Virus record (IMG/VR): IMGVR_UViG_3300018494_000026
DNA from: a virus
Length of the DNA: 46,586 nucleotides
Direction: 5' to 3' (one strand)
The notes under the pieces were generated by a model, which did no database searches, was not told the DNA's origin, and worked only from the letters and a program-made list of their open reading frames with translations. The position numbers and the translations under genes are program-made. Positions 4,294 to 18,573 of this stretch are shown in pieces (the first letter of the stretch is position 1; every line of letters begins with the position of its first letter).

Positions 4294-5187
4294 ATGGAAA
4301 TCATCCGTTACTATCAAACGAAGAATCCATGTTACATATCCGGACGCAAGATCAAGCCGACTGGCATTGTGGTGCATAGCACCGGGGCGAACAACCCCTA
4401 TCTGAAGCGCTATGTCGGCCCGGATGACGGCATTCTGGGCAAGAATGAGTACAACAACCACTGGAACAAGGCAAGCGCAAACAAATGCATGCATGCCTTT
4501 ATTGGCAAGGCAGCAGATGGAAGCGTGAAGGTGTACCAGACATTGCCGTGGGATCATCGCTGCTGGGGTGTGGGAAGCGGAAAAAAGGGAAGCTACAACG
4601 CTTCCCACATCCAGTTTGAAATTTGCGAGGATAACAAGAAGGACAAAGCCTACTATGAGGAAGCCTTTGCATTGTCACAACAGCTTTGTGCATATCTGTG
4701 CGAACTGTACGGCATCAAGCAGGAAAACATTGTAGGACACTACGAGGCACATGCTGCCGGGTATGGATCGAATCATTCAGATCCGAAACCGTGGCAGAAG
4801 AAACATGGCGGGAGCATGGCACAATACAGGGCGTTTGTCAATAGCCTCGTAAACGGCTCAGAAACGCCTTCTGACGCGGATGTGAAGGAAGGTGACCAAT
4901 CTGCCACGGACACGCAGAGCAAGGCTGAGAAGCCCGTTACAACGCCCACAAACACGACACAGACCGGAAACATGGTGAAAACGATGAACACTCTCCGAAA
5001 AGGCAGTCGAGGGACACAGGTAAAAGTCCTGCAATGGTTGCTGAGTCTGAACGGCTACAATGTCGGAACGGTAGACGGCATCTTTGGCAACAATACGCTG
5101 AAAGCCGTGAAAGCATATCAGACAGCAAAAGGTCTGGATGCTGATGGCATTGTCGGCAAGAATACCTGGAATCAACTCTTAGCATAA
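4294..5187 (+). CDS. Endolysin: N-acetylmuramoyl-L-alanine amidase (Amidase_2/PGRP) with a C-terminal PG_binding_1 domain
   Basis: Amidase_2 pattern is present (GIVVHSTGA, HAFI, IQFEICE, IVGHYEAH..SDP). The C-terminus (LRKGSRGTQVKVLQWLLSLNGYNVGTVDGIFGNNTLKAVKAYQ..GLDADGIVGKNTW) is a classic peptidoglycan-binding repeat. Confidence 0.9.
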   Translation: MEIIRYYQTKNPCYISGRKIKPTGIVVHSTGANNPYLKRYVGPDDGILGKNEYNNHWNKASANKCMHAFIGKAADGSVKVYQTLPWDHRCWGVGSGKKGSYNASHIQFEICEDNKKDKAYYEEAFALSQQLCAYLCELYGIKQENIVGHYEAHAAGYGSNHSDPKPWQKKHGGSMAQYRAFVNSLVNGSETPSDADVKEGDQSATDTQSKAEKPVTTPTNTTQTGNMVKTMNTLRKGSRGTQVKVLQWLLSLNGYNVGTVDGIFGNNTLKAVKAYQTAKGLDADGIVGKNTWNQLLA

Positions 5188-10314: not shown

Positions 10315-10644
10315 TTGTATCAGCGGTATGCAAACCCAATGGAACTGCTGGACAATATGCTGATGACGGGTCAGCTTTACAGATTCGTGAGCGAGATTAT
10401 CAAGACGGTCAATGAGGAACTGGAAGAAAAAGCCCTGTGGGAATGGTGGTTACATAAGGATTGGGAACGATCCTGGAAAGAATTCCGCGAGTCCCTGAAT
10501 GATAAACAACATAATGCAGCACCAACGCGACAAGATACTCTGGACATTTTGAATGAGACGATGAATATCATGGCCTCTTTCCGTCCAGATGGCGGAGGTG
10601 AGCAGGATGAATCTATTTCGTCTGTTCGGGGAGATAGCGATTGA
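10315..10644 (+). CDS. Tail assembly chaperone extension (gpT-like), probably expressed as a frameshift fusion with 9905..10264
   Basis: It lies in the -1 frame relative to 9905..10300. That frame is open from 10246, and the track start is only a TTG. Confidence 0.65.
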   Translation: MYQRYANPMELLDNMLMTGQLYRFVSEIIKTVNEELEEKALWEWWLHKDWERSWKEFRESLNDKQHNAAPTRQDTLDILNETMNIMASFRPDGGGEQDESISSVRGDSD

Positions 10645-12343
10645 CGGGACGAGGGCGAACAGAACCCTTGATGACATTGCAAGAAGGGCTGGCATGACAA
10701 CGCAGGAAGTTGAATCGCATTTCAATAAGATAGGTACGGCGGCAGCGGGGATCATGCGGGGCATGGGCGTTGTCGGTGCGGCTATTGGTGGTGCGATGCT
10801 TGCTGTAACGGAAGGAACGAGGGAATACCGTGCGCAGATGGGCTTGCTTGACAGCGCGTTTCAATCCGCTGGGCATTCCTCTGCGGAGGCTAAAAGCACC
10901 TATTCAGAACTGAATGCGGTGCTGGGTGACACGGAGCAGGCTGTGGAAGCGGCACAGCACATTGCCCTGATTGCTGACAACGAAAAGGAAATGAACGAGC
11001 TGACGAAAATTGGCACAGGGATTTTCGCCAGTTACGGCGCAAGCCTTCCCCTTGAGGGGTTGTACGAGGCAATCGGGCACACAAGTGCCCTCGGAGAGGT
11101 GCAGGGCAGCCTCGCAGACGGATTGGAATGGGCTGGAATTTCCGTGGAGGATTTCAACAAAAAACTTGAAAAATGCTCCAATGAGGAAGAACGGCAAGAC
11201 CTCATCATGAAGACCTTGAAGGATACCTACGGGGAAGCGGCAACGCAATACCAGGCCACAAACAAGGACGTGATGGAGGCCCGAAAAGCCCAGGAGCGGC
11301 TCACGGATGCAATGGCTGAATTGGGCCGTGTTGGTGAACCCATCCTCACGGCAATCAAAAACAAGGTTGCGGGCATGGCGGAGGCGGCTATACCACACAT
11401 TCAGAATCTTGTCAACAAGGTCAAGGACATGAAGAAGTGGATAGCTGACAACAAGGATACCGTGGACAAATGGAAGGCGGCTATCATCGCTGTTACTGTC
11501 AGCACTGGGTCTTTTCTACTCATCATGAATTGGGGCAAGATCATGGCGGCTGCGAAAACAGCGATCATGGCAACCCGCGCGGCGGTGATCCTGTTCAATG
11601 CGGCTCTGAGGGCGAATCCGATTGGGCTTGTGATTTCCCTGTTGGCTGGACTGGTGGCAGGATTCATCTATTTGTGGAACAACAATAAGGGATTCAGACA
11701 GTTCTGGATTGATTTGTGGAACAAGCTCAAATCTGCCTGTTCAACTGCGATTACGGGCATTAAAAACAAGTTCAACGACCTGAAAGATGCTGCCGGGAAG
11801 GTGAAGAAGTGGTTTGAGGATATTCGCAAATCCATTTCGGACAAGATCGAATCGGCAGGGAAATCGGTGGGCAAAGTCGTGGACAAGATCAAGGGATTCT
11901 TCCCGCTGAAAATCGGCAAGATTTTCTCCAATCTGAAGATACCGAAGATTTCTGTCAGCGGCGGCAAAGCTCCTTACGGCATCGCTGGAAAAGGCAAAAT
12001 GCCTTCCTTTGACGTGAAGTGGAATGCTGAAGGCGCGATTTTCACAAAGCCCACCATCTTCAATACCCGGAATGGCTTGCAGGGCGTGGGTGAGGCTGGT
12101 GCAGAAGCGGTGCTTCCTGTGGCAAAGATGATGGACTATGTTTCTACTGCTGTGCGCAATGAGACAGGGAATATCGGGCAGATCATCATGGAGCAGAACA
12201 GGCTCTTGCTTGAATTCCTGCGGAGGAACATGCCGAAAATGGTTCAGCTTGATTCCGGGGCGATGGTGGGGGCGTTGCTTCCTGCTGTTGATACTGGGCT
12301 GGCTGACAGGTGGGAACATGTTAGAAGGGGCAATGTGAGGTAA
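10607..12343 (+). CDS. Tape measure protein, copy 1 (578 aa)
   Basis: Track ORF 10589..12343. I prefer ATG 10607, which lies 6 nt after GGAGGTG. It has a TMP-type N-terminus (MNLFRLFGEIAIDG), helical repeats, hydrophobic segments (IIAVTVSTGSFLLIMNW, GLVISLLAGLVAGFIYLW) and a TMP-type C-terminus (GVGEAGAEAVLPV). Confidence 0.8.
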   Translation: MNLFRLFGEIAIDGTRANRTLDDIARRAGMTTQEVESHFNKIGTAAAGIMRGMGVVGAAIGGAMLAVTEGTREYRAQMGLLDSAFQSAGHSSAEAKSTYSELNAVLGDTEQAVEAAQHIALIADNEKEMNELTKIGTGIFASYGASLPLEGLYEAIGHTSALGEVQGSLADGLEWAGISVEDFNKKLEKCSNEEERQDLIMKTLKDTYGEAATQYQATNKDVMEARKAQERLTDAMAELGRVGEPILTAIKNKVAGMAEAAIPHIQNLVNKVKDMKKWIADNKDTVDKWKAAIIAVTVSTGSFLLIMNWGKIMAAAKTAIMATRAAVILFNAALRANPIGLVISLLAGLVAGFIYLWNNNKGFRQFWIDLWNKLKSACSTAITGIKNKFNDLKDAAGKVKKWFEDIRKSISDKIESAGKSVGKVVDKIKGFFPLKIGKIFSNLKIPKISVSGGKAPYGIAGKGKMPSFDVKWNAEGAIFTKPTIFNTRNGLQGVGEAGAEAVLPVAKMMDYVSTAVRNETGNIGQIIMEQNRLLLEFLRRNMPKMVQLDSGAMVGALLPAVDTGLADRWEHVRRGNVR

Positions 12344-12345
12344 AG

Positions 12346-12374
12346 AAAAGGGACGGCAAATCGCCGTCCCTTTC
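12346..12374. terminator. Terminator between the convergent TMP1 and reverse-strand genes
   Basis: gggacggc / gccgtccc forms an 8-bp stem with an aaatc loop. It has an A-run on the left and only TTT on the right, so it should be stronger for the minus-strand gene and leaky for late (+) transcription. Confidence 0.7.
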
Positions 12375-12376
12375 AG

Positions 12377-12877
12377 TTAGAAACCTAAGCCCTTGTATGG
12401 TGCGAAAGTCATGCTGTCGTATTCAACGCAGACAACTTGATTGTTTTTTAGCGTTACTTTTCCAACCGAGCCACCGGAAAGCATATCGAAGTCGTGAACA
12501 AGTTTCCCGTTTGTGTAGATTTCCAAACTGCAATACCTCTGTCCTGCTGTGACGGTGTATGTTCCTGCCGGAATGTCTACACCGACAACGTATTCACCCA
12601 TGGGCACTACAACTTCACCTTGCACATTGCCACGGCTTCTAAGTTCTAACTGCATAATGGCAATGAGAACTTTTAGATAATTGTCGCTGTAACCAGAAAT
12701 AACTTCTGCGCTGGCCTGATGGCTAAAGACTGCGATTTCTTCTATTGTCATACCTTCAGCAAGGCAATTTTCGATAATTTGGGTGTATTCATCCATTGCC
12801 GATTCAGCCGATGCAACGCAATGGAAAACAAGCAGGAGAGTGAGAAGGAACGAAACAAAGGGACACAACTTTTTCAT
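12377..12877 (-). CDS. Secreted protein (Sec signal peptide), moron-like gene embedded between the two tape-measure genes
   Basis: ORF track. GGAGG lies 8 nt upstream. The signal peptide is MKKLCPFVSFLLTLLLVFHCVASA|ES (AXA site, no lipobox). The C-terminal part is beta-rich (GEYVVGVDIPAGTYTVTAG). It has its own promoter and terminator. Confidence 0.8.
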   Translation of the reverse strand: MKKLCPFVSFLLTLLLVFHCVASAESAMDEYTQIIENCLAEGMTIEEIAVFSHQASAEVISGYSDNYLKVLIAIMQLELRSRGNVQGEVVVPMGEYVVGVDIPAGTYTVTAGQRYCSLEIYTNGKLVHDFDMLSGGSVGKVTLKNNQVVCVEYDSMTFAPYKGLGF

Positions 12878-12906
12878 GTTGGCAACCTCCTATATCGTGA
12901 TACCTA

Positions 12907-12935
12907 TATGATGCATAAAAATCGGTTTTTGTCAA
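12907..12935 (-). promoter_or_regulatory. Sigma70-type promoter for the reverse-strand secreted-protein gene
   Basis: On the minus strand: TTGACA (12935-12930), a 17-nt spacer ending in TGc, then ATCATA (12912-12907). Confidence 0.6.
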
Positions 12936-12959
12936 GAGGGGAAGAAAGGCGGTGGGAAC

Positions 12960-14666
12960 ATGGATATATTTACGCTTGTTGGTAAAATCACGATTGAAAT
13001 TCAAGACGCATTGAACAACATCAATACCGTCATGACAGAAGTTCAAGAATTGGACGCGCTGTTGAATGGCACTCAAACTACAACTCAAACAACCGGGCAA
13101 GCAGTTGAAACGGCTACAAAGGATGCAACTGAAAAAGGCACCAGCACTTTGACCAAATGGAGCGTCATGATGGGCAACCTGGCAACACAGGCAGCAAACA
13201 AAGTGTATGACGCTGGCAAGAGCTTCTTGCAGACGGGCTACGAGTTCAACGCGAACATGGATTTGTGGCGAAACCAGTTGCAAAACATGCTGAGTCTCGA
13301 TTTCGCAGGGGCGGATGCATTTTTGAACAAATTACATCAGTTTGCTATTGACACGCCCTACTCTATGGATGAAGTTATGTCAAACGCAATTATGCTGATT
13401 GGCAATAAAAAGATAAGAGAATCAACAGATATTATTGATTTGCTTACGATCATCGGCAATGTGTCAAACGGCGAAAACGCAGCATTTGGCAGCATTGCAA
13501 AGGGCATCATGCAGGTTATGACGAAGGGAAAAGTCCAGGCGGAAGAAGCTAACCAACAGTTCGCAGAACGAGGAGTTGATGTTTGGCAGATTCTTGCTGA
13601 CTATTTTTCCTTTATCGACCGTGACGGTCAAGATGTATGGGAATCAGATGATGTATCGAGCTTGGGAACGATAAACCCTACCATCATGGCAACATCTGAG
13701 GAATTCATGGCGGCGATGAAACATGCTGCATTGCAAGATGGCGGCTTTTATTACGGCAGAATGGATGCCATGATGAATACTGCGACTGGTCAGGCACAGC
13801 GTATGCAGGACGCATACCAAAAGGCTGCTGGCGCATTTACAGGTGGCGTTTTTGAAACGTTTGCAACTCAAACGATTCCTGCAATCAGCGAGATCATGGA
13901 GAAGCTCGACAAGTGGGCAACAGAAAACCCGGAAGCCTTAAAGAATCTTGGTGAAGCATTTAGCAATTTTGCGACAGGCGGGTTGGATGTCTTTCTTGGC
14001 AGTTTGCAAGGGTTGCTTGGTTGGTGGAATGATAATCGTGCGGCATTCGACTCTTTGCTTGTACTACTTGGCGGCATCGCGCTGTATATCGGACATCCTG
14101 CGGCAGGCACGGCTTTGATTGCCACTGGTGCGTTTGATGCGTATACGGATGCAAAAAAGCAAATAGAAGAAGGTTCACCAGTAGGACAGTATGTGAATAA
14201 AGACCCGGAGATTAAAGAGGCTGTGAAAAATGGGACAACAGATGAACTTACTGGTACGGATTGGTTTACCTATCATGTAGGTGCACCTTTAGTTCAGTTT
14301 ATGCACGATTTGTTTCCAGGACTTAACGTAGACCCGTCTGTGATTGAAGATCCTGCCGAGGATGAAACCGACAATAAATATCAGACTCCCCTTTGGCAAC
14401 TGAACAACTTAGACACAGACGGAGTTGGTGGAAACAACGGAAGTATGTCCTTGTTTGGTTCGCTTCTGCAACAGCTTTCCACATTGAAAACTGATGTAAC
14501 GGCAGCGGCAAAAGAAGGTGTGTCTGAAGGCGTTGGTAATATCACCATCACCGGATATGTCACCACGGGTGATGTAAAACTGCAAGATGGTACGCTTGTC
14601 GGATCGCTGATGCCTCAGATTAACTTACAGCTTGGCTGGCAAAATGAGTTGAGTTCGAGGGGGTGA
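12960..14666 (+). CDS. Tape measure protein, copy 2 (568 aa, TP901-type core region)
   Basis: The N-terminus (MDIFTLVGKITIEI) parallels TMP1. The core pattern (FAIDTPYSMDEVMSNAIML...GSIAKGIMQVMTKGKVQAEEANQQFAERGVDVWQIL) resembles the TP901 tape-measure core. It also has a hydrophobic segment (LLVLLGGIALYIGHPAAG). Confidence 0.85.
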   Translation: MDIFTLVGKITIEIQDALNNINTVMTEVQELDALLNGTQTTTQTTGQAVETATKDATEKGTSTLTKWSVMMGNLATQAANKVYDAGKSFLQTGYEFNANMDLWRNQLQNMLSLDFAGADAFLNKLHQFAIDTPYSMDEVMSNAIMLIGNKKIRESTDIIDLLTIIGNVSNGENAAFGSIAKGIMQVMTKGKVQAEEANQQFAERGVDVWQILADYFSFIDRDGQDVWESDDVSSLGTINPTIMATSEEFMAAMKHAALQDGGFYYGRMDAMMNTATGQAQRMQDAYQKAAGAFTGGVFETFATQTIPAISEIMEKLDKWATENPEALKNLGEAFSNFATGGLDVFLGSLQGLLGWWNDNRAAFDSLLVLLGGIALYIGHPAAGTALIATGAFDAYTDAKKQIEEGSPVGQYVNKDPEIKEAVKNGTTDELTGTDWFTYHVGAPLVQFMHDLFPGLNVDPSVIEDPAEDETDNKYQTPLWQLNNLDTDGVGGNNGSMSLFGSLLQQLSTLKTDVTAAAKEGVSEGVGNITITGYVTTGDVKLQDGTLVGSLMPQINLQLGWQNELSSRG

Positions 14667-14670
14667 TTAG

Positions 14671-15093
14671 ATGCGAGGCATTACATTTGACAACAAGCAT
14701 TCCTATTGGGATTGGGGCTTGATGCTGACGAAACCTCCTGCAATCAGTACACCTGAACCGAAAACGCATTATGTGGACATTCCAGGAGCGCATGGTGCAA
14801 TGGATTTGACAGAGGCGCTGACAGGAAAGGTGCAGTACAAGAACAGGAAAATCGAATTGGAGTTCATCACAACGGCAGGCCGGGAAGACTGGTCTGCCGT
14901 TTATAGTGACATTCTTTCGGAATTGCACGGGCAGATGAAGGAAATCGCTCTTGACGATGACCCGATGCACTACTACAAAGGGCGAGTGACGGTTGGTGAT
15001 CCTGAGCGCGTCAATGATAAGACTGTCATGGTCAAGATGACGGCAGAGGTTGAGCCTTTCAAGAAAACCTATGAAGGGACGGCGATGCTGTAA
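14671..15093 (+). CDS. Distal tail protein (Dit), copy 1, short form (140 aa)
   Basis: The N-terminus (MRGITFDNKHSYWDWGL...YVDIPGAHGAMDLTE...LDDDPMHYYKGR...EPFK) is typical of the siphovirus Dit N-domain. It lies directly after a TMP. Confidence 0.75.
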   Translation: MRGITFDNKHSYWDWGLMLTKPPAISTPEPKTHYVDIPGAHGAMDLTEALTGKVQYKNRKIELEFITTAGREDWSAVYSDILSELHGQMKEIALDDDPMHYYKGRVTVGDPERVNDKTVMVKMTAEVEPFKKTYEGTAML

Positions 15094-16514
15094 TGTACAA
15101 AATGAAAGCGGATGGGGTCGTTTTTTACGACCCTTCCTCTGATGATATGGCACTGCATGTACTGTATCCCAAGGCAAAGTACGAGTTAAACAAGGCAGGA
15201 ACACTGACATTCACGATGCTTCCGGGTAACGTGATGTATGATGGTTTGCATAAACTAAAAACCGTTGTCACCATTGAACAGGATGATGAAGTGATTTTCC
15301 GTGGTCGTGTTCTGGAAACGGAGACAGACCTTTACAATCAGAAGAAGGTTCACTGCGAGGGCGAATTGGCCTATCTGCTGGACAGCATGCAGCGGCCTTA
15401 CAAGTACGATGGCAGCGCGAAAGAATACCTTCCCATGCTGATTGAAAACCACAATGCAGACGTGGAGGAAAGCAAACGATTCACGGTGGGGCTGATAACT
15501 GCGCTGACGGATGAGGATACTGTCAAGATTGAAAGCGAGAATTACGCAAATACGCTGGAAGAGATCAAGTCGCTTCTGCTGAATGAGTTCAACGGCTATC
15601 TGCGTGTGCGCTGGGAAGATGGTGTTCGCTATCTTGATTATGTGGACAAGTTCAATCAGACATGTTCACAGGAAATCAATTTCGGTGTGAATCTTGTGGA
15701 TATTGAAACCAATGTCAATGCAATGGATGTTTGTTCTGTACTGATTCCGCTGGGCAGATCGAAAAAAGGAAAATACACAAGCATTGCGAAGGCGAACGGC
15801 GGCAAGGATTACATCGAGGATGCTGCGCTGATAGCAAAGTATGGGCGAGTTGTCAAGACCTATACATGGGACGAAGTAGAAGACCCGGAAGAACTGCTTG
15901 AATTGGGTCAGAAACACATGGAACGGATGGCAGCAGAAACAACGCTGACCATCAAAGCGGTTGACCTCCACGCTGTTGGAGCGGATGTGGACGGCATCAG
16001 GCTTGGCGATACGGTGAAACTTGTTTCCGCCCCGCATAGGCTGGACAAGGAAGATGTATGTACGAAGATTGACCTGGACATTGAAAACCCGGAGAAGTCT
16101 GAGTACACCTTTGGCCTTCCTATGGAAACGCTGACGGACAGAAACGCGAGTGCAACAAGGAAGAACAAGTCAAGCATGGATCACATGCACAAGTGGCTGA
16201 CGGAGACGGACGATTCATTGCGAATCGTTGTAGATAAAGTGAATGGTCTTATCTTACTGCAAGCCGATTATGTGACGATTAAAGCATTAGAAACGGAAAT
16301 TGAAGGACTGCTGAAAGCGGAAAATCTGCAAGCGGCGATTGCAGATTTGGATAACGTTGCAGTTTCTTCATTGTCTGTTAGCGGCACTGCGCATTGCACA
16401 AACCTTGCAGTGCATGGCGCGGGAAGTGTGGACGGTGATTTGTCAGTCAGCGGTGCAATAAACGGCATTTACTTGGACGACCTTGAAGCGCGTGTTAGTG
16501 CGCTGGAGGGATAA
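15093..16514 (+). CDS. Tail-associated (Tal-like) minor structural protein, copy 1 (473 aa)
   Basis: TAATG overlap with Dit1. Tal N-domain pattern is present (ELNKAGTLTFTM..., FRGRVLETE, CEGELAYLLDSMQRPY), with a coiled-coil C-terminus. Confidence 0.75.
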   Translation: MYKMKADGVVFYDPSSDDMALHVLYPKAKYELNKAGTLTFTMLPGNVMYDGLHKLKTVVTIEQDDEVIFRGRVLETETDLYNQKKVHCEGELAYLLDSMQRPYKYDGSAKEYLPMLIENHNADVEESKRFTVGLITALTDEDTVKIESENYANTLEEIKSLLLNEFNGYLRVRWEDGVRYLDYVDKFNQTCSQEINFGVNLVDIETNVNAMDVCSVLIPLGRSKKGKYTSIAKANGGKDYIEDAALIAKYGRVVKTYTWDEVEDPEELLELGQKHMERMAAETTLTIKAVDLHAVGADVDGIRLGDTVKLVSAPHRLDKEDVCTKIDLDIENPEKSEYTFGLPMETLTDRNASATRKNKSSMDHMHKWLTETDDSLRIVVDKVNGLILLQADYVTIKALETEIEGLLKAENLQAAIADLDNVAVSSLSVSGTAHCTNLAVHGAGSVDGDLSVSGAINGIYLDDLEARVSALEG

Positions 16515-16516
16515 AT

Positions 16517-17155
16517 ATGAAGGGGGTTTCATTCCTTGGGTTTCACTCCTACCGTGACCTTCACATTCTGCTGACTGGAAAGGAGATCGGTTCGCCGGAA
16601 GTCAAGCGGCAAACCATCGACATTGAAGGGGCAGACGGTGAACTGGATTACACGGATTTCTTTGGTGAACCCAAATACACGAATGCGCAGCACCGATTTG
16701 ATTTTGAAAGCATTCAGCCCTGGAATGAACAACTCTCACAGTTTACGGACATCAAGAACAAGATACATGGGAAGAAGGGAAGGATTGTGCTGGACAACGA
16801 TCCTTCCTTCTTCTATGTGGGCAGGTGCTTTGTATCGGCCTACAAGAATGAAGTGACCATCGGCAGGATCAGCATTGAGTGCGACTGTGAACCGTACAAG
16901 TACAAGATGCAACCGACAATAATGTCGGTCACAATTGACGGCACTCAGACCATTATCTTGACAAATGCGCGGAAACGTGCTGTGCCGACCATCACCACCA
17001 CGTCGGACATGACAATTTCCTTCGGGGAAGGGATATGGACGAACCGGGCAGGGACATTCACTATTCCTGAATTGGAACTTGTGGAGGGTGAGAACCTTGT
17101 CACTGTTACAGGCACAGGAACGATCACGTTCACATGGCAGGAGGCGGTGCTATGA
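16517..17155 (+). CDS. Distal tail protein (Dit), copy 2, long form (212 aa)
   Basis: It is paralogous to 14671..15093 (MKGVSFLGFHSYRDL...IDIEGADGELDYTD...LDNDPSFFYVGR...EPYK) and carries an extra C-terminal beta domain. Confidence 0.75.
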   Translation: MKGVSFLGFHSYRDLHILLTGKEIGSPEVKRQTIDIEGADGELDYTDFFGEPKYTNAQHRFDFESIQPWNEQLSQFTDIKNKIHGKKGRIVLDNDPSFFYVGRCFVSAYKNEVTIGRISIECDCEPYKYKMQPTIMSVTIDGTQTIILTNARKRAVPTITTTSDMTISFGEGIWTNRAGTFTIPELELVEGENLVTVTGTGTITFTWQEAVL

Positions 17156-18573
17156 CGTACCGGGTGTATTGTGACAGCATGCTTCTGTATCACAGCAAAC
17201 TTGAAAACCTTGTGTTGTTCAATCCGTCTGTGGAATTGGAGGTCAACAAAACCGGGTCGTTCACATTCACAGTGCCTTCAAACCATCCGTATTATGGCCT
17301 GATTCACAAGATGAAAAGCATCATCACGGTATATCAGGACGATTACCTGCTGTTCCGTGGAAGGGTGCTTGACGATGAAATAGGCTGGCATAATGAGAAG
17401 GCTGTCACCTGTGAAGGGGAGATGGCCTTTTTGCTTGACAGTATCATGCGACCCTATGACTTTTCCGGCAGTATCCCGGAATACTTGGCTGTGCTGCTGG
17501 ACAGTCACAACAGTCAAGTGGATGCGGATAAGCGGTTTACGCTGGGCAAGGTGACGGTTGCAGACGCAAATGACTACATCGTGCGGTCAAACATCGACTA
17601 CACCGACACATGGACTGAAATGCAGGACAAGCTGGTCAAACTGCTTGGCGGGTATCTGCAAATCAGGCATGAAGGCGATGCGCATTACATTGACTATTTG
17701 CAAGACTTCACACTGCTTGCTCCGCAAAAAATCGAATTCGGCAAGAATCTGCTGGACTTGAAACGCATTCGGAAGGGCGCGGACATTGCAACAGCGGTCA
17801 TCCCACTGGGCGCGAAACTGAAGGATGCAGACGGTAAAGACACGGACGAACGCCTGACCATTGCAGAGGTCAATGCTGGGCTTGACTACATTGTGGATGA
17901 AGATGCGAAAGCACAATTCGGCCTGATTGTCAAGACGGTCATATTTGACGATGTGACCGATGCAAACAATCTGCTGACGAAAGGCAAAGCATACCTTGCA
18001 GGACTTGTCAAGTTGCCTGAAACCATTGAGTTGACGGCGGCTGATATGGCAACGCTGGGGCAGGACATTACGTCCTTTCACATTGGCACAAAGGTTCAAG
18101 TGAAAAGCAATCCCCACGGCATTGACCAACTTTTCACGGTCAGCAAGCTATCCATCAAATTGCTTGACCCGGCATCGAATCACTTGACGCTGGGCGGGGT
18201 GCTGGATACCTTCACGGCATCAACAAGCAAGATCACAGCCATCACCGGAAAGGATGGCAAGAACGGAGAGGATGCTGTCACCTTGCGGATTGATTCCAGC
18301 AGGGGGACTGTGTTCAAGAACAGCGAAGTTTCGACTGTTCTGAATGTTGTCATTTTCAAGGGAGGCAAAACGATCACGGATGCGGCCGCTATGAGGGCTG
18401 AGTTCGGGAGCAACGCCTATCTTGAATGGCAATGGCAGCGTATGGGGGAAGCGACCTTCGGGACGATATTGACAACGGACAGCAGAATATCGAACGAAGG
18501 ATTTGCTTTGTCGCTGGCACCGAGCGACGTAGACACAAAGGTTGTTTTCAAATGCCAACTTGTCTCGGAATGA
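17152..18573 (+). CDS. Tail-associated (Tal-like) minor structural protein, copy 2 (473 aa)
   Basis: Track ORF 17134..18573. ATG 17152 overlaps the Dit2 stop (ATGA) and lies 7 nt after GGAGG. It is paralogous to 15093..16514 (EVNKTGSFTFTV, FRGRVLDDE, CEGEMAFLLDSIMRPY). Confidence 0.75.
   Translation: MTYRVYCDSMLLYHSKLENLVLFNPSVELEVNKTGSFTFTVPSNHPYYGLIHKMKSIITVYQDDYLLFRGRVLDDEIGWHNEKAVTCEGEMAFLLDSIMRPYDFSGSIPEYLAVLLDSHNSQVDADKRFTLGKVTVADANDYIVRSNIDYTDTWTEMQDKLVKLLGGYLQIRHEGDAHYIDYLQDFTLLAPQKIEFGKNLLDLKRIRKGADIATAVIPLGAKLKDADGKDTDERLTIAEVNAGLDYIVDEDAKAQFGLIVKTVIFDDVTDANNLLTKGKAYLAGLVKLPETIELTAADMATLGQDITSFHIGTKVQVKSNPHGIDQLFTVSKLSIKLLDPASNHLTLGGVLDTFTASTSKITAITGKDGKNGEDAVTLRIDSSRGTVFKNSEVSTVLNVVIFKGGKTITDAAAMRAEFGSNAYLEWQWQRMGEATFGTILTTDSRISNEGFALSLAPSDVDTKVVFKCQLVSE

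What the first reader, a model, noticed from the sequence alone, without database searches (positions are those of the whole stretch)
12346..12959. Autonomous reverse-strand secreted-protein gene wedged between the two tape-measure genes
ORF 12377..12877 is the only minus-strand gene in about 22 kb of late genes. It has its own near-consensus promoter (TTGACA-17-ATCATA with TGc), a good RBS and a terminator that is stronger in its own direction than for late transcription. The product has a Sec signal peptide (MKKLCPFVSFLLTLLLVFHCVASA|ES) and a beta-rich C-terminal domain. This is the architecture of a lysogen-expressed moron. Secreted or lipoprotein superinfection-exclusion factors that act on the incoming TMP or injection step are known (Ltp of S. 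thermophilus phage TP-J34, Sie2009). That makes the position between TMP genes intriguing, although the functional link is speculation.
Basis: partly seen in the sequence, partly recalled or inferred. Interest (0 to 1): 0.6.

Follow-up and report, generated by a model that had tools for sequence, protein, structure and literature searches.

The report
Secreted-protein moron between two tape-measure genes
A temperate phage of gut Clostridia carries a self-contained add-on gene for a small exported protein, placed backwards between its two tail tape-measure genes. Related phages leave this site empty or fill it with unrelated exported proteins, so it is a well-documented example of a known kind of prophage "moron", and its function (most likely blocking other phages at the cell surface) is untested.

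Summary
ORF 12377..12877 (-) is a real gene under purifying selection (dN/dS 0.09-0.29). It encodes a 166-aa protein with a Sec-type signal peptide, a short helical domain and a confident 8-strand beta-sandwich. It has its own promoter-like site, RBS and a hairpin terminator with the better U-tract on its own strand.

Comparison with relatives settles what it is. In phages sharing the upstream tape-measure gene (48-91% identity), this junction is one of three things:
- empty (35-55 nt);
- filled with this family;
- filled with other, apparently unrelated reverse-strand signal-peptide or membrane proteins (two tested by profile share only the signal peptide). These often sit behind the same promoter cassette and a similar terminator.

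More distant family members sit directly upstream of prophage integrases. One relative fuses the beta domain to Ltp repeats, the domain of a known exclusion lipoprotein that targets tape-measure proteins.

So this is a moron in a swap slot, the Gram-positive counterpart of the HK97 gene 15 slot. This scan has already reported similar slots beside tape-measure genes in E. coli phages. Superinfection exclusion is the leading guess (about 40%).

The parts
12930..12935 (-). -35 hexamer TTGACA of the moron promoter
   Evidence: 10 of 12 match. The same hexamer sits at the same offset from the downstream tape-measure start codon in L001, L002, L008, L040, L094, L095 and L099.
12908..12917 (-). -10 region: TATG then CATCAT (16-nt spacer), a TRTG-type extended -10 typical of Gram-positive promoters. 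The exact hexamer is ambiguous.
   Evidence: The TG at spacer positions 15-16 is kept in all 8 loci with the TTGACA cassette.
12886..12890 (-). Shine-Dalgarno GGAGG, 8 nt before the ATG
   Evidence: GGAGG or AGGAGG is present before most cargo genes in the slot that were examined.
12377..12877 (-). Coding sequence of the 166-aa exported protein (P0001). The predicted mature form is 142 aa, 15.5 kDa, pI 4.4.
   Evidence: 24 full-length homologues at 33-93% identity. dN/dS 0.09-0.29.
12806..12877 (-). Signal peptide, residues 1-24, with predicted cleavage after the A-S-A motif
   Evidence: AlphaFold2 gives a helix at residues 5-17 and a low-confidence linker at 21-26. There is no lipobox.
12629..12799 (-). 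Helical domain, residues about 27-83 (three helices)
   Evidence: Present only in the closer homologues. No structural or sequence match to anything known.
12380..12622 (-). Beta-sandwich domain, residues about 86-166. It has the invariant motif V-P-x-G-x-Y-x-x-G-x-D-I-P-x-G-x-Y and the C-terminal end Y-x-G-L-G-F.
   Evidence: Sub-threshold match to NCBIfam NF053833. 2671 representative clusters match the profile.
12346..12374 (.). Hairpin terminator in the 33-nt gap between the two convergent stop codons. The U-tract is stronger on the minus strand.
   Evidence: inverted repeat I2, 11 of 11 pairs. A similar GGGACGGC...GCCGTCCC hairpin is present in slots with other cargo.
10589..12343 (+). 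Upstream tape-measure gene (TMP-A), the conserved left border of the slot
   Evidence: 48-91% identical across the close relatives L001-L010, L040 and L094-L109.
12960..14666 (+). Downstream tape-measure gene (TMP-B), the variable right border of the slot. Its RBS and start codon lie 25 nt from the moron's -35 hexamer.
   Evidence: Pfam TMP_3. It is highly variable among relatives.

Best explanation
This is a moron: a self-contained transcription unit (promoter, RBS, one gene, terminator) sitting backwards in a cargo slot between the two paralogous tape-measure genes of a temperate siphovirus of gut Clostridia.

The gene encodes a Sec-exported, acidic protein of about 15.5 kDa. It consists of a small helical domain and a beta-sandwich binding-type domain that is widespread in secreted and surface proteins of Clostridia.

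Inferred mechanism:
1. In a lysogen, host RNA polymerase transcribes the gene from its own promoter and stops at the hairpin before running antisense into the upstream tape-measure gene.
2. The protein is exported and acts at the cell envelope. The most likely role is hindering adsorption or DNA entry of superinfecting phages.
3. During lytic growth, late transcription crosses the gene in antisense.

Related phages exchange the cargo by recombination between the conserved flanks.

What is shown: the gene is real and under selection; it has an export signal; the unit is modular; the slot can be empty or filled with different cargo; family members sit next to integrases.

What is inferred: expression during lysogeny, and the exclusion function (about 40%).
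For: - Real gene under purifying selection.
- Signal peptide kept in all homologues.
- Beta-sandwich predicted with high confidence.
- Promoter cassette and terminator are conserved across loci, including loci with unrelated cargo; every filled slot examined has a promoter-like site on reading the sequence.
- Slot empty in L096, L098/L106, L101/L102 and L107. Other reverse-strand signal-peptide or membrane proteins in L094, L097, L099, L104, L105 and L108. The two tested by profile comparison (L099, L105) share only the signal peptide with this family.
- The phage is temperate (serine recombinase plus HTH gene).
- Family members lie immediately upstream of serine recombinases or tyrosine integrases in 9 of 9 tested loci.
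- The beta domain is fused to two Ltp repeats in P0028 and in 2 of 41 long relatives.
- Precedents: the HK97 gene 15 moron lies beside the tape-measure gene and excludes phages (PMC3594210). Ltp repeats block infection by binding the tape-measure protein, and a soluble secreted form retains activity against most phages tested (PMC3952083).
Against: - There are no expression data.
- The protein has no lipid anchor, transmembrane segment or recognised wall-binding motif. In a single-membrane host it might simply diffuse away.
- It has no similarity to any characterised exclusion protein: Pfam, PADLOC and PDB searches found nothing.
- The Ltp fusion is rare. The same domain is also fused to adhesin-type modules (Big_2, BspA-type LRR, peptidoglycan-binding), which fits a general binding module.
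- Cargo type does not correlate with tape-measure type.
- The promoter match on its own is no better than chance frequency.
Confidence: 0.75

Rival explanations
1. It is a lysogenic-conversion factor that benefits the host for reasons unrelated to phages. A secreted or surface-associated binding protein (for carbohydrate, matrix or host ligand) would change adhesion, aggregation or nutrient capture in the gut.
For: - The weak structural neighbours are carbohydrate-binding modules and C1q-like or claudin-binding jelly rolls.
- The domain occurs in tandem in large surface proteins with Big_2, BspA-type LRR, Listeria-Bacteroides repeats and peptidoglycan-binding domains.
- It occurs in long runs of signal-peptide genes on serine-recombinase elements.
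- Lambda Lom and Bor are precedents for morons of this type (PMC3594210).
Against: - No structural match reaches E <= 0.001 in the PDB, so no ligand can be inferred.
- A site where related phages carry several dissimilar envelope proteins is more typical of phage-against-phage conflict.
Confidence: 0.3
2. It is a lytic-conversion protein in the manner of T5 Llp. It would be made early in infection, not in lysogeny, and would mask the receptor or the wall so that progeny are not lost on debris and the infected cell is not superinfected.
For: - The gene is embedded in the tail module on the opposite strand, as I recall for llp beside the T5 receptor-binding gene (my own knowledge, not checked here).
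- A sigma-A-type promoter would also be active early in infection.
Against: - Family members sit in lysogeny modules, co-oriented with and directly upstream of integrases. That placement points to prophage expression.
- Late antisense transcription would oppose its expression at the time progeny are released.
Confidence: 0.1
3. The position is functional. The product acts on this phage's own tape-measure proteins or tail assembly, for example by choosing between the two tape-measure and tail-tip sets.
For: The gene lies exactly between two complete tape-measure paralogues, and the arrangement is kept in more than 12 loci.
Against: - The protein is exported, whereas tails assemble in the cytoplasm.
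- Close relatives with both tape-measure genes have an empty slot or unrelated cargo.
- The family also occurs far from tail genes.
Confidence: 0.03
4. It is a chance ORF or a decaying remnant.
For: None beyond the lack of any database annotation.
Against: - dN/dS is 0.09-0.29 over dS up to 2.4.
- 24 intact full-length homologues and 576 representative clusters at E <= 1e-10.
- The fold is predicted with high confidence.
Confidence: 0.01

Closest known systems
HK97 gene 15 moron (gp15, a YebO-like superinfection-exclusion protein; Juhala et al. 2000, Cumby et al. 2012, reviewed in PMC3594210)
   Same: Both are autonomous add-on units with their own promoter and terminator, placed inside the tail operon immediately upstream of a tape-measure gene. 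Both are absent from some relatives and encode a small cell-envelope protein.
   Different: gp15 is an inner-membrane protein of a Gram-negative host with no sequence relation to this one. Here the product is a cleaved-signal exported protein with a beta-sandwich, and the slot lies between two tape-measure paralogues rather than between the chaperone and the tape-measure gene. The function here is untested.
Ltp of Streptococcus thermophilus phage TP-J34 (Pfam PF07553; Bebeacua et al. 2013; PMC3952083)
   Same: Both are prophage-encoded exported proteins of Gram-positive hosts. A relative (P0028) joins two Ltp repeats to three copies of this beta domain. A soluble secreted Ltp derivative retains activity against most phages tested, so a lipid anchor is not essential for exclusion.
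   Different: This protein has no lipobox and no Ltp repeat: no Pfam hit, and profile comparison aligns only the beta domain. ltp lies between the integrase and repressor genes, not in the tail module.
Lambda bor and lom; T5 llp; phi80/N15 cor
   Same: These are envelope-protein genes carried within or beside late or tail genes that alter the cell surface of the carrier.
   Different: They are outer-membrane proteins or lipoproteins of Gram-negative hosts and are unrelated in sequence. This comparison rests on my own knowledge except for Lom and Cor, which are mentioned in PMC3594210.
NCBIfam NF053833, Rv1352/Rv1906c domain (secreted mycobacterial proteins of unknown function)
   Same: They share the G-x-Y-x-V-G-x-D-I-x-P-G-x-Y motif region and an extracytoplasmic location. 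All six family members tested match at E from 1e-4 to 2e-2.
   Different: All scores (15-22.6 bits) are below the curated cut-off of 25 bits. The mycobacterial proteins have no known function, so the match gives no mechanism.

Membership tests
Moron (as defined by Juhala et al. 2000 and summarised in PMC3594210) | Own promoter upstream of the gene | tested here: met
   TTGACA-16-CATCAT, 10 of 12. The cassette is conserved in 8 loci across cargo types, and every filled slot examined has a promoter-like site on reading the sequence. Activity itself was not measured.
Moron (as defined by Juhala et al. 2000 and summarised in PMC3594210) | Own terminator downstream of the gene | tested here: met
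   Hairpin of -22.1 kcal/mol followed by UUUUCUUU. Equivalent hairpins are found in all filled slots.
Moron (as defined by Juhala et al. 2000 and summarised in PMC3594210) | Extra DNA that is absent from otherwise related phage genomes | tested here: met
   The slot is 35-55 nt and empty in L096, L098/L106, L101/L102 and L107.
Moron (as defined by Juhala et al. 2000 and summarised in PMC3594210) | Base composition different from the neighbouring genes | tested here: inconclusive
   GC is 43.9% against 52.3% for the upstream tape-measure gene, but 45.9% for the downstream one.
Moron (as defined by Juhala et al. 2000 and summarised in PMC3594210) | Expressed from the repressed prophage | not testable with these tools
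Ltp-type exclusion lipoprotein (Pfam PF07553) | Ltp repeat domain | tested here: not met
   No Pfam hit at E <= 1. hhalign against the Ltp-containing relative aligns only residues 86-164. A model of the helical domain finds nothing.
Ltp-type exclusion lipoprotein (Pfam PF07553) | Lipobox and lipid anchor | tested here: not met
   The residues before the conserved Cys (F-H-C, or F-P-C in relatives) do not fit a lipobox. An A-x-A signal-peptidase I site follows.
Ltp-type exclusion lipoprotein (Pfam PF07553) | Blocks DNA entry by binding the incoming tape-measure protein | not testable with these tools
   This needs plating and binding assays.
HK97 gp15 / YebO family | Sequence homology to YebO-like small inner-membrane proteins | tested here: not met
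   No Pfam family matches at E <= 1. The architecture also differs: a cleaved signal peptide followed by a 142-aa soluble part.
NCBIfam NF053833 (Rv1352/Rv1906c domain) | Score at or above the curated cut-off of 25 bits | tested here: not met
   21.5 bits, E = 2.2e-4. All six family members tested fall below the cut-off. It is a probable distant relative, not a member.
Sec (signal peptidase I) secretory protein | Positively charged start, hydrophobic core and A-x-A cleavage motif | tested here: met
   By inspection and a hydropathy window: 2 Lys in the first 8 residues, a mean Kyte-Doolittle value of 2.86 over 12 residues, and A-S-A before Glu25. The pattern is kept in 25 of 25 homologues. No dedicated predictor was available.

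The most novel reading that the evidence does not exclude
The beta-sandwich family, with about 2,700 representative clusters that are mostly 130-140-aa proteins matched over their C-terminal domain, may be a large unrecognised class of Gram-positive superinfection-exclusion or phage-decoy proteins that work outside the membrane. The junction upstream of the second tape-measure gene would then be a dedicated, pre-wired expression slot, with a shared promoter and terminator acting as landing pads, through which gut Clostridia phages exchange such envelope defences. It would be the counterpart of the HK97 gene 15 slot in enterobacterial phages.
Probability: 0.25. Interest if true: 0.65.

Novelty: new member of a known kind. 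Interest (0 to 1): 0.4.

Why it matters
Morons are how prophages change their hosts, and almost all studied examples come from enterobacterial phages. This locus is a clean, comparison-backed example from uncultured gut and rumen Clostridia. It is a fixed slot beside a tape-measure gene with conserved regulatory flanks and at least seven different exported or membrane cargoes.

It also points to a very large uncharacterised family of small secreted proteins that travels with prophages and serine-recombinase elements. If these proteins turn out to be exclusion factors, they would add a widespread layer of phage resistance in the gut microbiome and give a defined set of candidates to test. If they do not, the finding is still a tidy annotation of a known type of element.

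Tried and rejected
- **Phage and DNA database searches:** megablast of the region and tblastn of the protein against 50,697 phage records found nothing.
- **Family searches:** Pfam, PHROGs and PADLOC gave no usable family for the protein.
- **Solved structures:** a PDB sequence profile search gave only noise.
- **Fold search, whole model:** against the PDB, no hit reached E <= 0.001; only generic jelly-roll, carbohydrate-binding-module and C1q-like folds appeared. Against viral models, the best hit was an unnamed protein at 1e-5.
- **Helical domain alone:** the model had pLDDT 69 and found no structural neighbour. An Ltp-like three-helix repeat is therefore not supported, though the model is weak.
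- **Other slot cargoes:** profile comparison with the L099 and L105 cargoes matched only the signal peptide. Pfam on the other cargoes gave only MORN repeats and zinc ribbons.
- **Flanking direct repeat:** a perfect 12-nt direct repeat flanks the cassette at 12309 and 12951. It is absent from all 14 relatives checked, so it is probably chance and not an insertion scar.
- **Intron or intein idea:** I considered that the gene marks an intron or intein splitting a single tape-measure gene and rejected it. Both flanking genes start with the typical tape-measure N-terminal motif and have their own RBS, and relatives have both genes with nothing between them.
- **Tools unavailable:** the own-genome search failed because no genome is held.

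Full report
**1. The observation**

The minus-strand ORF 12377..12877 exists and gives a 166-residue protein. It lies between two plus-strand genes.
- The gene at 10589..12343 (584 aa) matches PHROG tape-measure families at up to 1e-34.
- The gene at 12960..14666 (568 aa) passes the Pfam TMP_3 threshold.

Both start with the usual tape-measure N-terminal pattern. They are two paralogous genes, not one split gene.

The window is a temperate siphovirus. It has portal, capsid, major tail, two Dit-like and two Tal-like genes on the plus strand, followed by a large serine recombinase and an HTH gene on the minus strand. The three longest minus-strand ORFs inside the late block have no PHROG match. 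Two of them overlap capsid and major-tail genes with strong matches and the third partly overlaps the portal gene. The claim that this is the only real minus-strand gene there holds.

**2. Regulatory signals**

- *Promoter:* the -35 hexamer TTGACA (12935-12930) is exact. The best -10 is CATCAT at 16 nt. Sites of this quality occur 9 times in the window against 5.5 expected, so the match alone proves little.
- *RBS:* GGAGG is 8 nt from the ATG.
- *Terminator:* the hairpin at 12346-12374 fills the 33-nt gap between the convergent stop codons. It folds at -22.1 kcal/mol (z = -5.7). It has seven U in the next eight bases on the minus strand, against three consecutive U on the plus strand.

**3. 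The gene is real**

- A search of 5.8 billion proteins gave 24 homologues at 33-93% identity.
- All have an N-terminal signal-peptide pattern, an invariant V-P-x-G-x-Y-x-x-G-x-D-I-P-x-G-x-Y motif and a conserved C-terminal Y-x-G-L-G-F.
- Pairwise dN/dS among six DNA copies is 0.09-0.29, with dS up to 2.4.
- AlphaFold2 (mean pLDDT 83) gives a signal helix, a floppy linker at the predicted cleavage site, three helices and an eight-strand beta-sandwich with block-mean pLDDT of 92-96 across residues 91-160.
- The predicted mature protein is 142 aa, 15.5 kDa, pI 4.4.

**4. What the neighbours say**

The same arrangement (conserved upstream tape-measure gene, reverse gene of this family, variable downstream tape-measure gene) recurs in L001-L006, L008-L010, L040 and L095. 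It also appears, judged from gene layout only, in the short contigs L112-L115.

I then searched with the upstream tape-measure protein itself. That search found relatives in which the junction differs.
- *Empty:* L096, L098/L106, L101/L102 and L107 have only 35-55 nt holding a hairpin and an RBS.
- *Other cargo, all on the reverse strand*:
  - L094: a signal-peptide protein of about 133 aa.
  - L097: a secreted MORN-repeat protein.
  - L099/L100: a 149-aa signal-peptide protein.
  - L105: a 157-aa signal-peptide protein.
  - L108: a 121-aa protein with an N-terminal hydrophobic segment.
  - L104: a zinc-ribbon membrane protein plus a multi-pass membrane protein.

Profile comparison shows the L099 and L105 cargoes share only the signal peptide with this family. 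Some slots hold two or three genes (L095, L115).

Different cargoes sit behind the same promoter cassette.
- TTGACA-N14-TG occurs in eight loci, three of them with unrelated cargo.
- A second cassette, TTGCCT-17-TAAAAT, is shared by L004 and L108.
- The remaining loci each have their own good promoter-like site.
- Most end at a similar GGGACGGC...GCCGTCCC hairpin.

The promoter and terminator therefore behave as conserved flanks between which cargo is exchanged.

**5. The family elsewhere**

More distant members (129-150 aa) lie directly upstream of, and co-oriented with, large serine recombinases or tyrosine integrases. All nine downstream genes tested were confirmed by Pfam. Other members lie at the end of the tail module, after a DUF859 gene (L013, L041).

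A profile search of 1.84 billion representatives finds 2671 clusters at E <= 0.001 and 576 at E <= 1e-10. Most are 130-140-aa proteins, and some are long proteins with up to 35 repeats. In the long proteins the domain accompanies Big_2, BspA-type LRR, peptidoglycan-binding, zinc-ribbon and, in 2 of 41, Ltp domains. One example, P0028 in L046, reads signal peptide, two Ltp repeats, then three copies of this domain ending in Y-Q-G-L-G-F.

All six members tested match NCBIfam NF053833 (Rv1352/Rv1906c domain) just below its cut-off.

Genome hits are almost all MAGs of gut and rumen Clostridia. One is labelled Prevotella, which is probably a binning error.

**6. Interpretation**

The unit meets the tested criteria of a moron: its own promoter and terminator, and absence from relatives. 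The composition criterion is equivocal and expression could not be tested.

The closest precedent is the HK97 gene 15 moron. It lies in the tail operon just before the tape-measure gene and encodes an exclusion protein (PMC3594210).

This scan has reported reverse-strand exported-protein morons in swap slots beside the tape-measure gene of several E. coli phages. I reached the HK97 comparison before reading those notes. They add that the pattern is recurrent.

Two observations suggest a simple reason for the position.
- The empty slots still carry a plus-strand terminator-like hairpin after the first tape-measure gene.
- The genes downstream are needed in few copies per virion.

A terminator is tolerated at such a point, so a cassette with a two-way hairpin does little harm there. 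I consider this likelier than a functional tie to tape-measure proteins. Cargo type does not follow the type of the downstream tape-measure gene.

**7. Function**

Function is inferred only. Superinfection exclusion at the envelope is my leading guess (about 40%), for four reasons.
- The slot collects several dissimilar envelope proteins.
- The family keeps company with integrases.
- The beta domain is occasionally fused to Ltp repeats, whose role in blocking tape-measure-mediated entry is established.
- A soluble Ltp derivative retains activity against most phages tested (PMC3952083).

Against this, there is no anchor, no similarity to any known exclusion protein, and the same domain is also used in adhesin-like proteins. 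A host-benefit binding protein is therefore a serious rival (about 30%).

**8. Limits**

- No host genome is held.
- No signal-peptide predictor was available.
- The exact -10 hexamer is unresolved.

Noticed in passing
window 10589-18573: The phage has two complete tape-measure paralogues and two Dit-like plus two Tal-like (Prophage_tail) genes in series. Relatives keep both tape-measure genes. The first is conserved (48-91% identity), while the second is highly variable in length (467-1207 aa) and sequence.
   Followed up: partly
L096:4084-4137, L098:2918-2972, L101:6747-6797, L107:7011-7045: In relatives with an empty slot, the first tape-measure gene is still followed by a GC-rich hairpin with a run of 5-6 T on the late strand. 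This looks like an attenuation point in the middle of the tail operon.
   Followed up: no
window 10589-14666: Third-position GC is 62.6% in the first tape-measure gene but 46.0% in the second and 43.7% in the moron. The slot therefore coincides with a mosaic boundary.
   Followed up: no
L053:3677-11249 and L046:2553-7625: Bacterial contigs carry runs of up to about ten consecutive signal-peptide genes, several of them from this family, plus a zinc-ribbon membrane protein like the L104 slot cargo. The runs lie next to a small HTH gene and a large serine recombinase and may be a mobile element loaded with secreted proteins. L046 includes the Ltp-beta-domain fusion.
   Followed up: partly
window 12309-12320 and 12951-12962: A perfect 12-nt direct repeat, GGTGGGAACATG, brackets the cassette. 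One copy is inside the end of the first tape-measure gene; the other is the RBS and start of the second. It was not found in 14 relatives, so it is probably chance.
   Followed up: yes
L095:2325-3444, L115:529-771, L112:1907-2172: Some slots hold extra material. L095 has three reverse genes, one with a membrane anchor and a Cys/His motif. L115 has an additional 80-aa gene of the same kind. L112 has about 266 nt more than the window.
   Followed up: no
window 4294-5187: The amidase endolysin (Amidase_2 plus PG_binding_1) lies inside the head module between the MuF-like and scaffold genes. The same placement is seen in L001-L003.
   Followed up: no
L040: A contig with the same slot architecture belongs to a MAG labelled Prevotella. 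All other genome hits are Clostridia or other Gram-positives, so this is probably a binning error.
   Followed up: no
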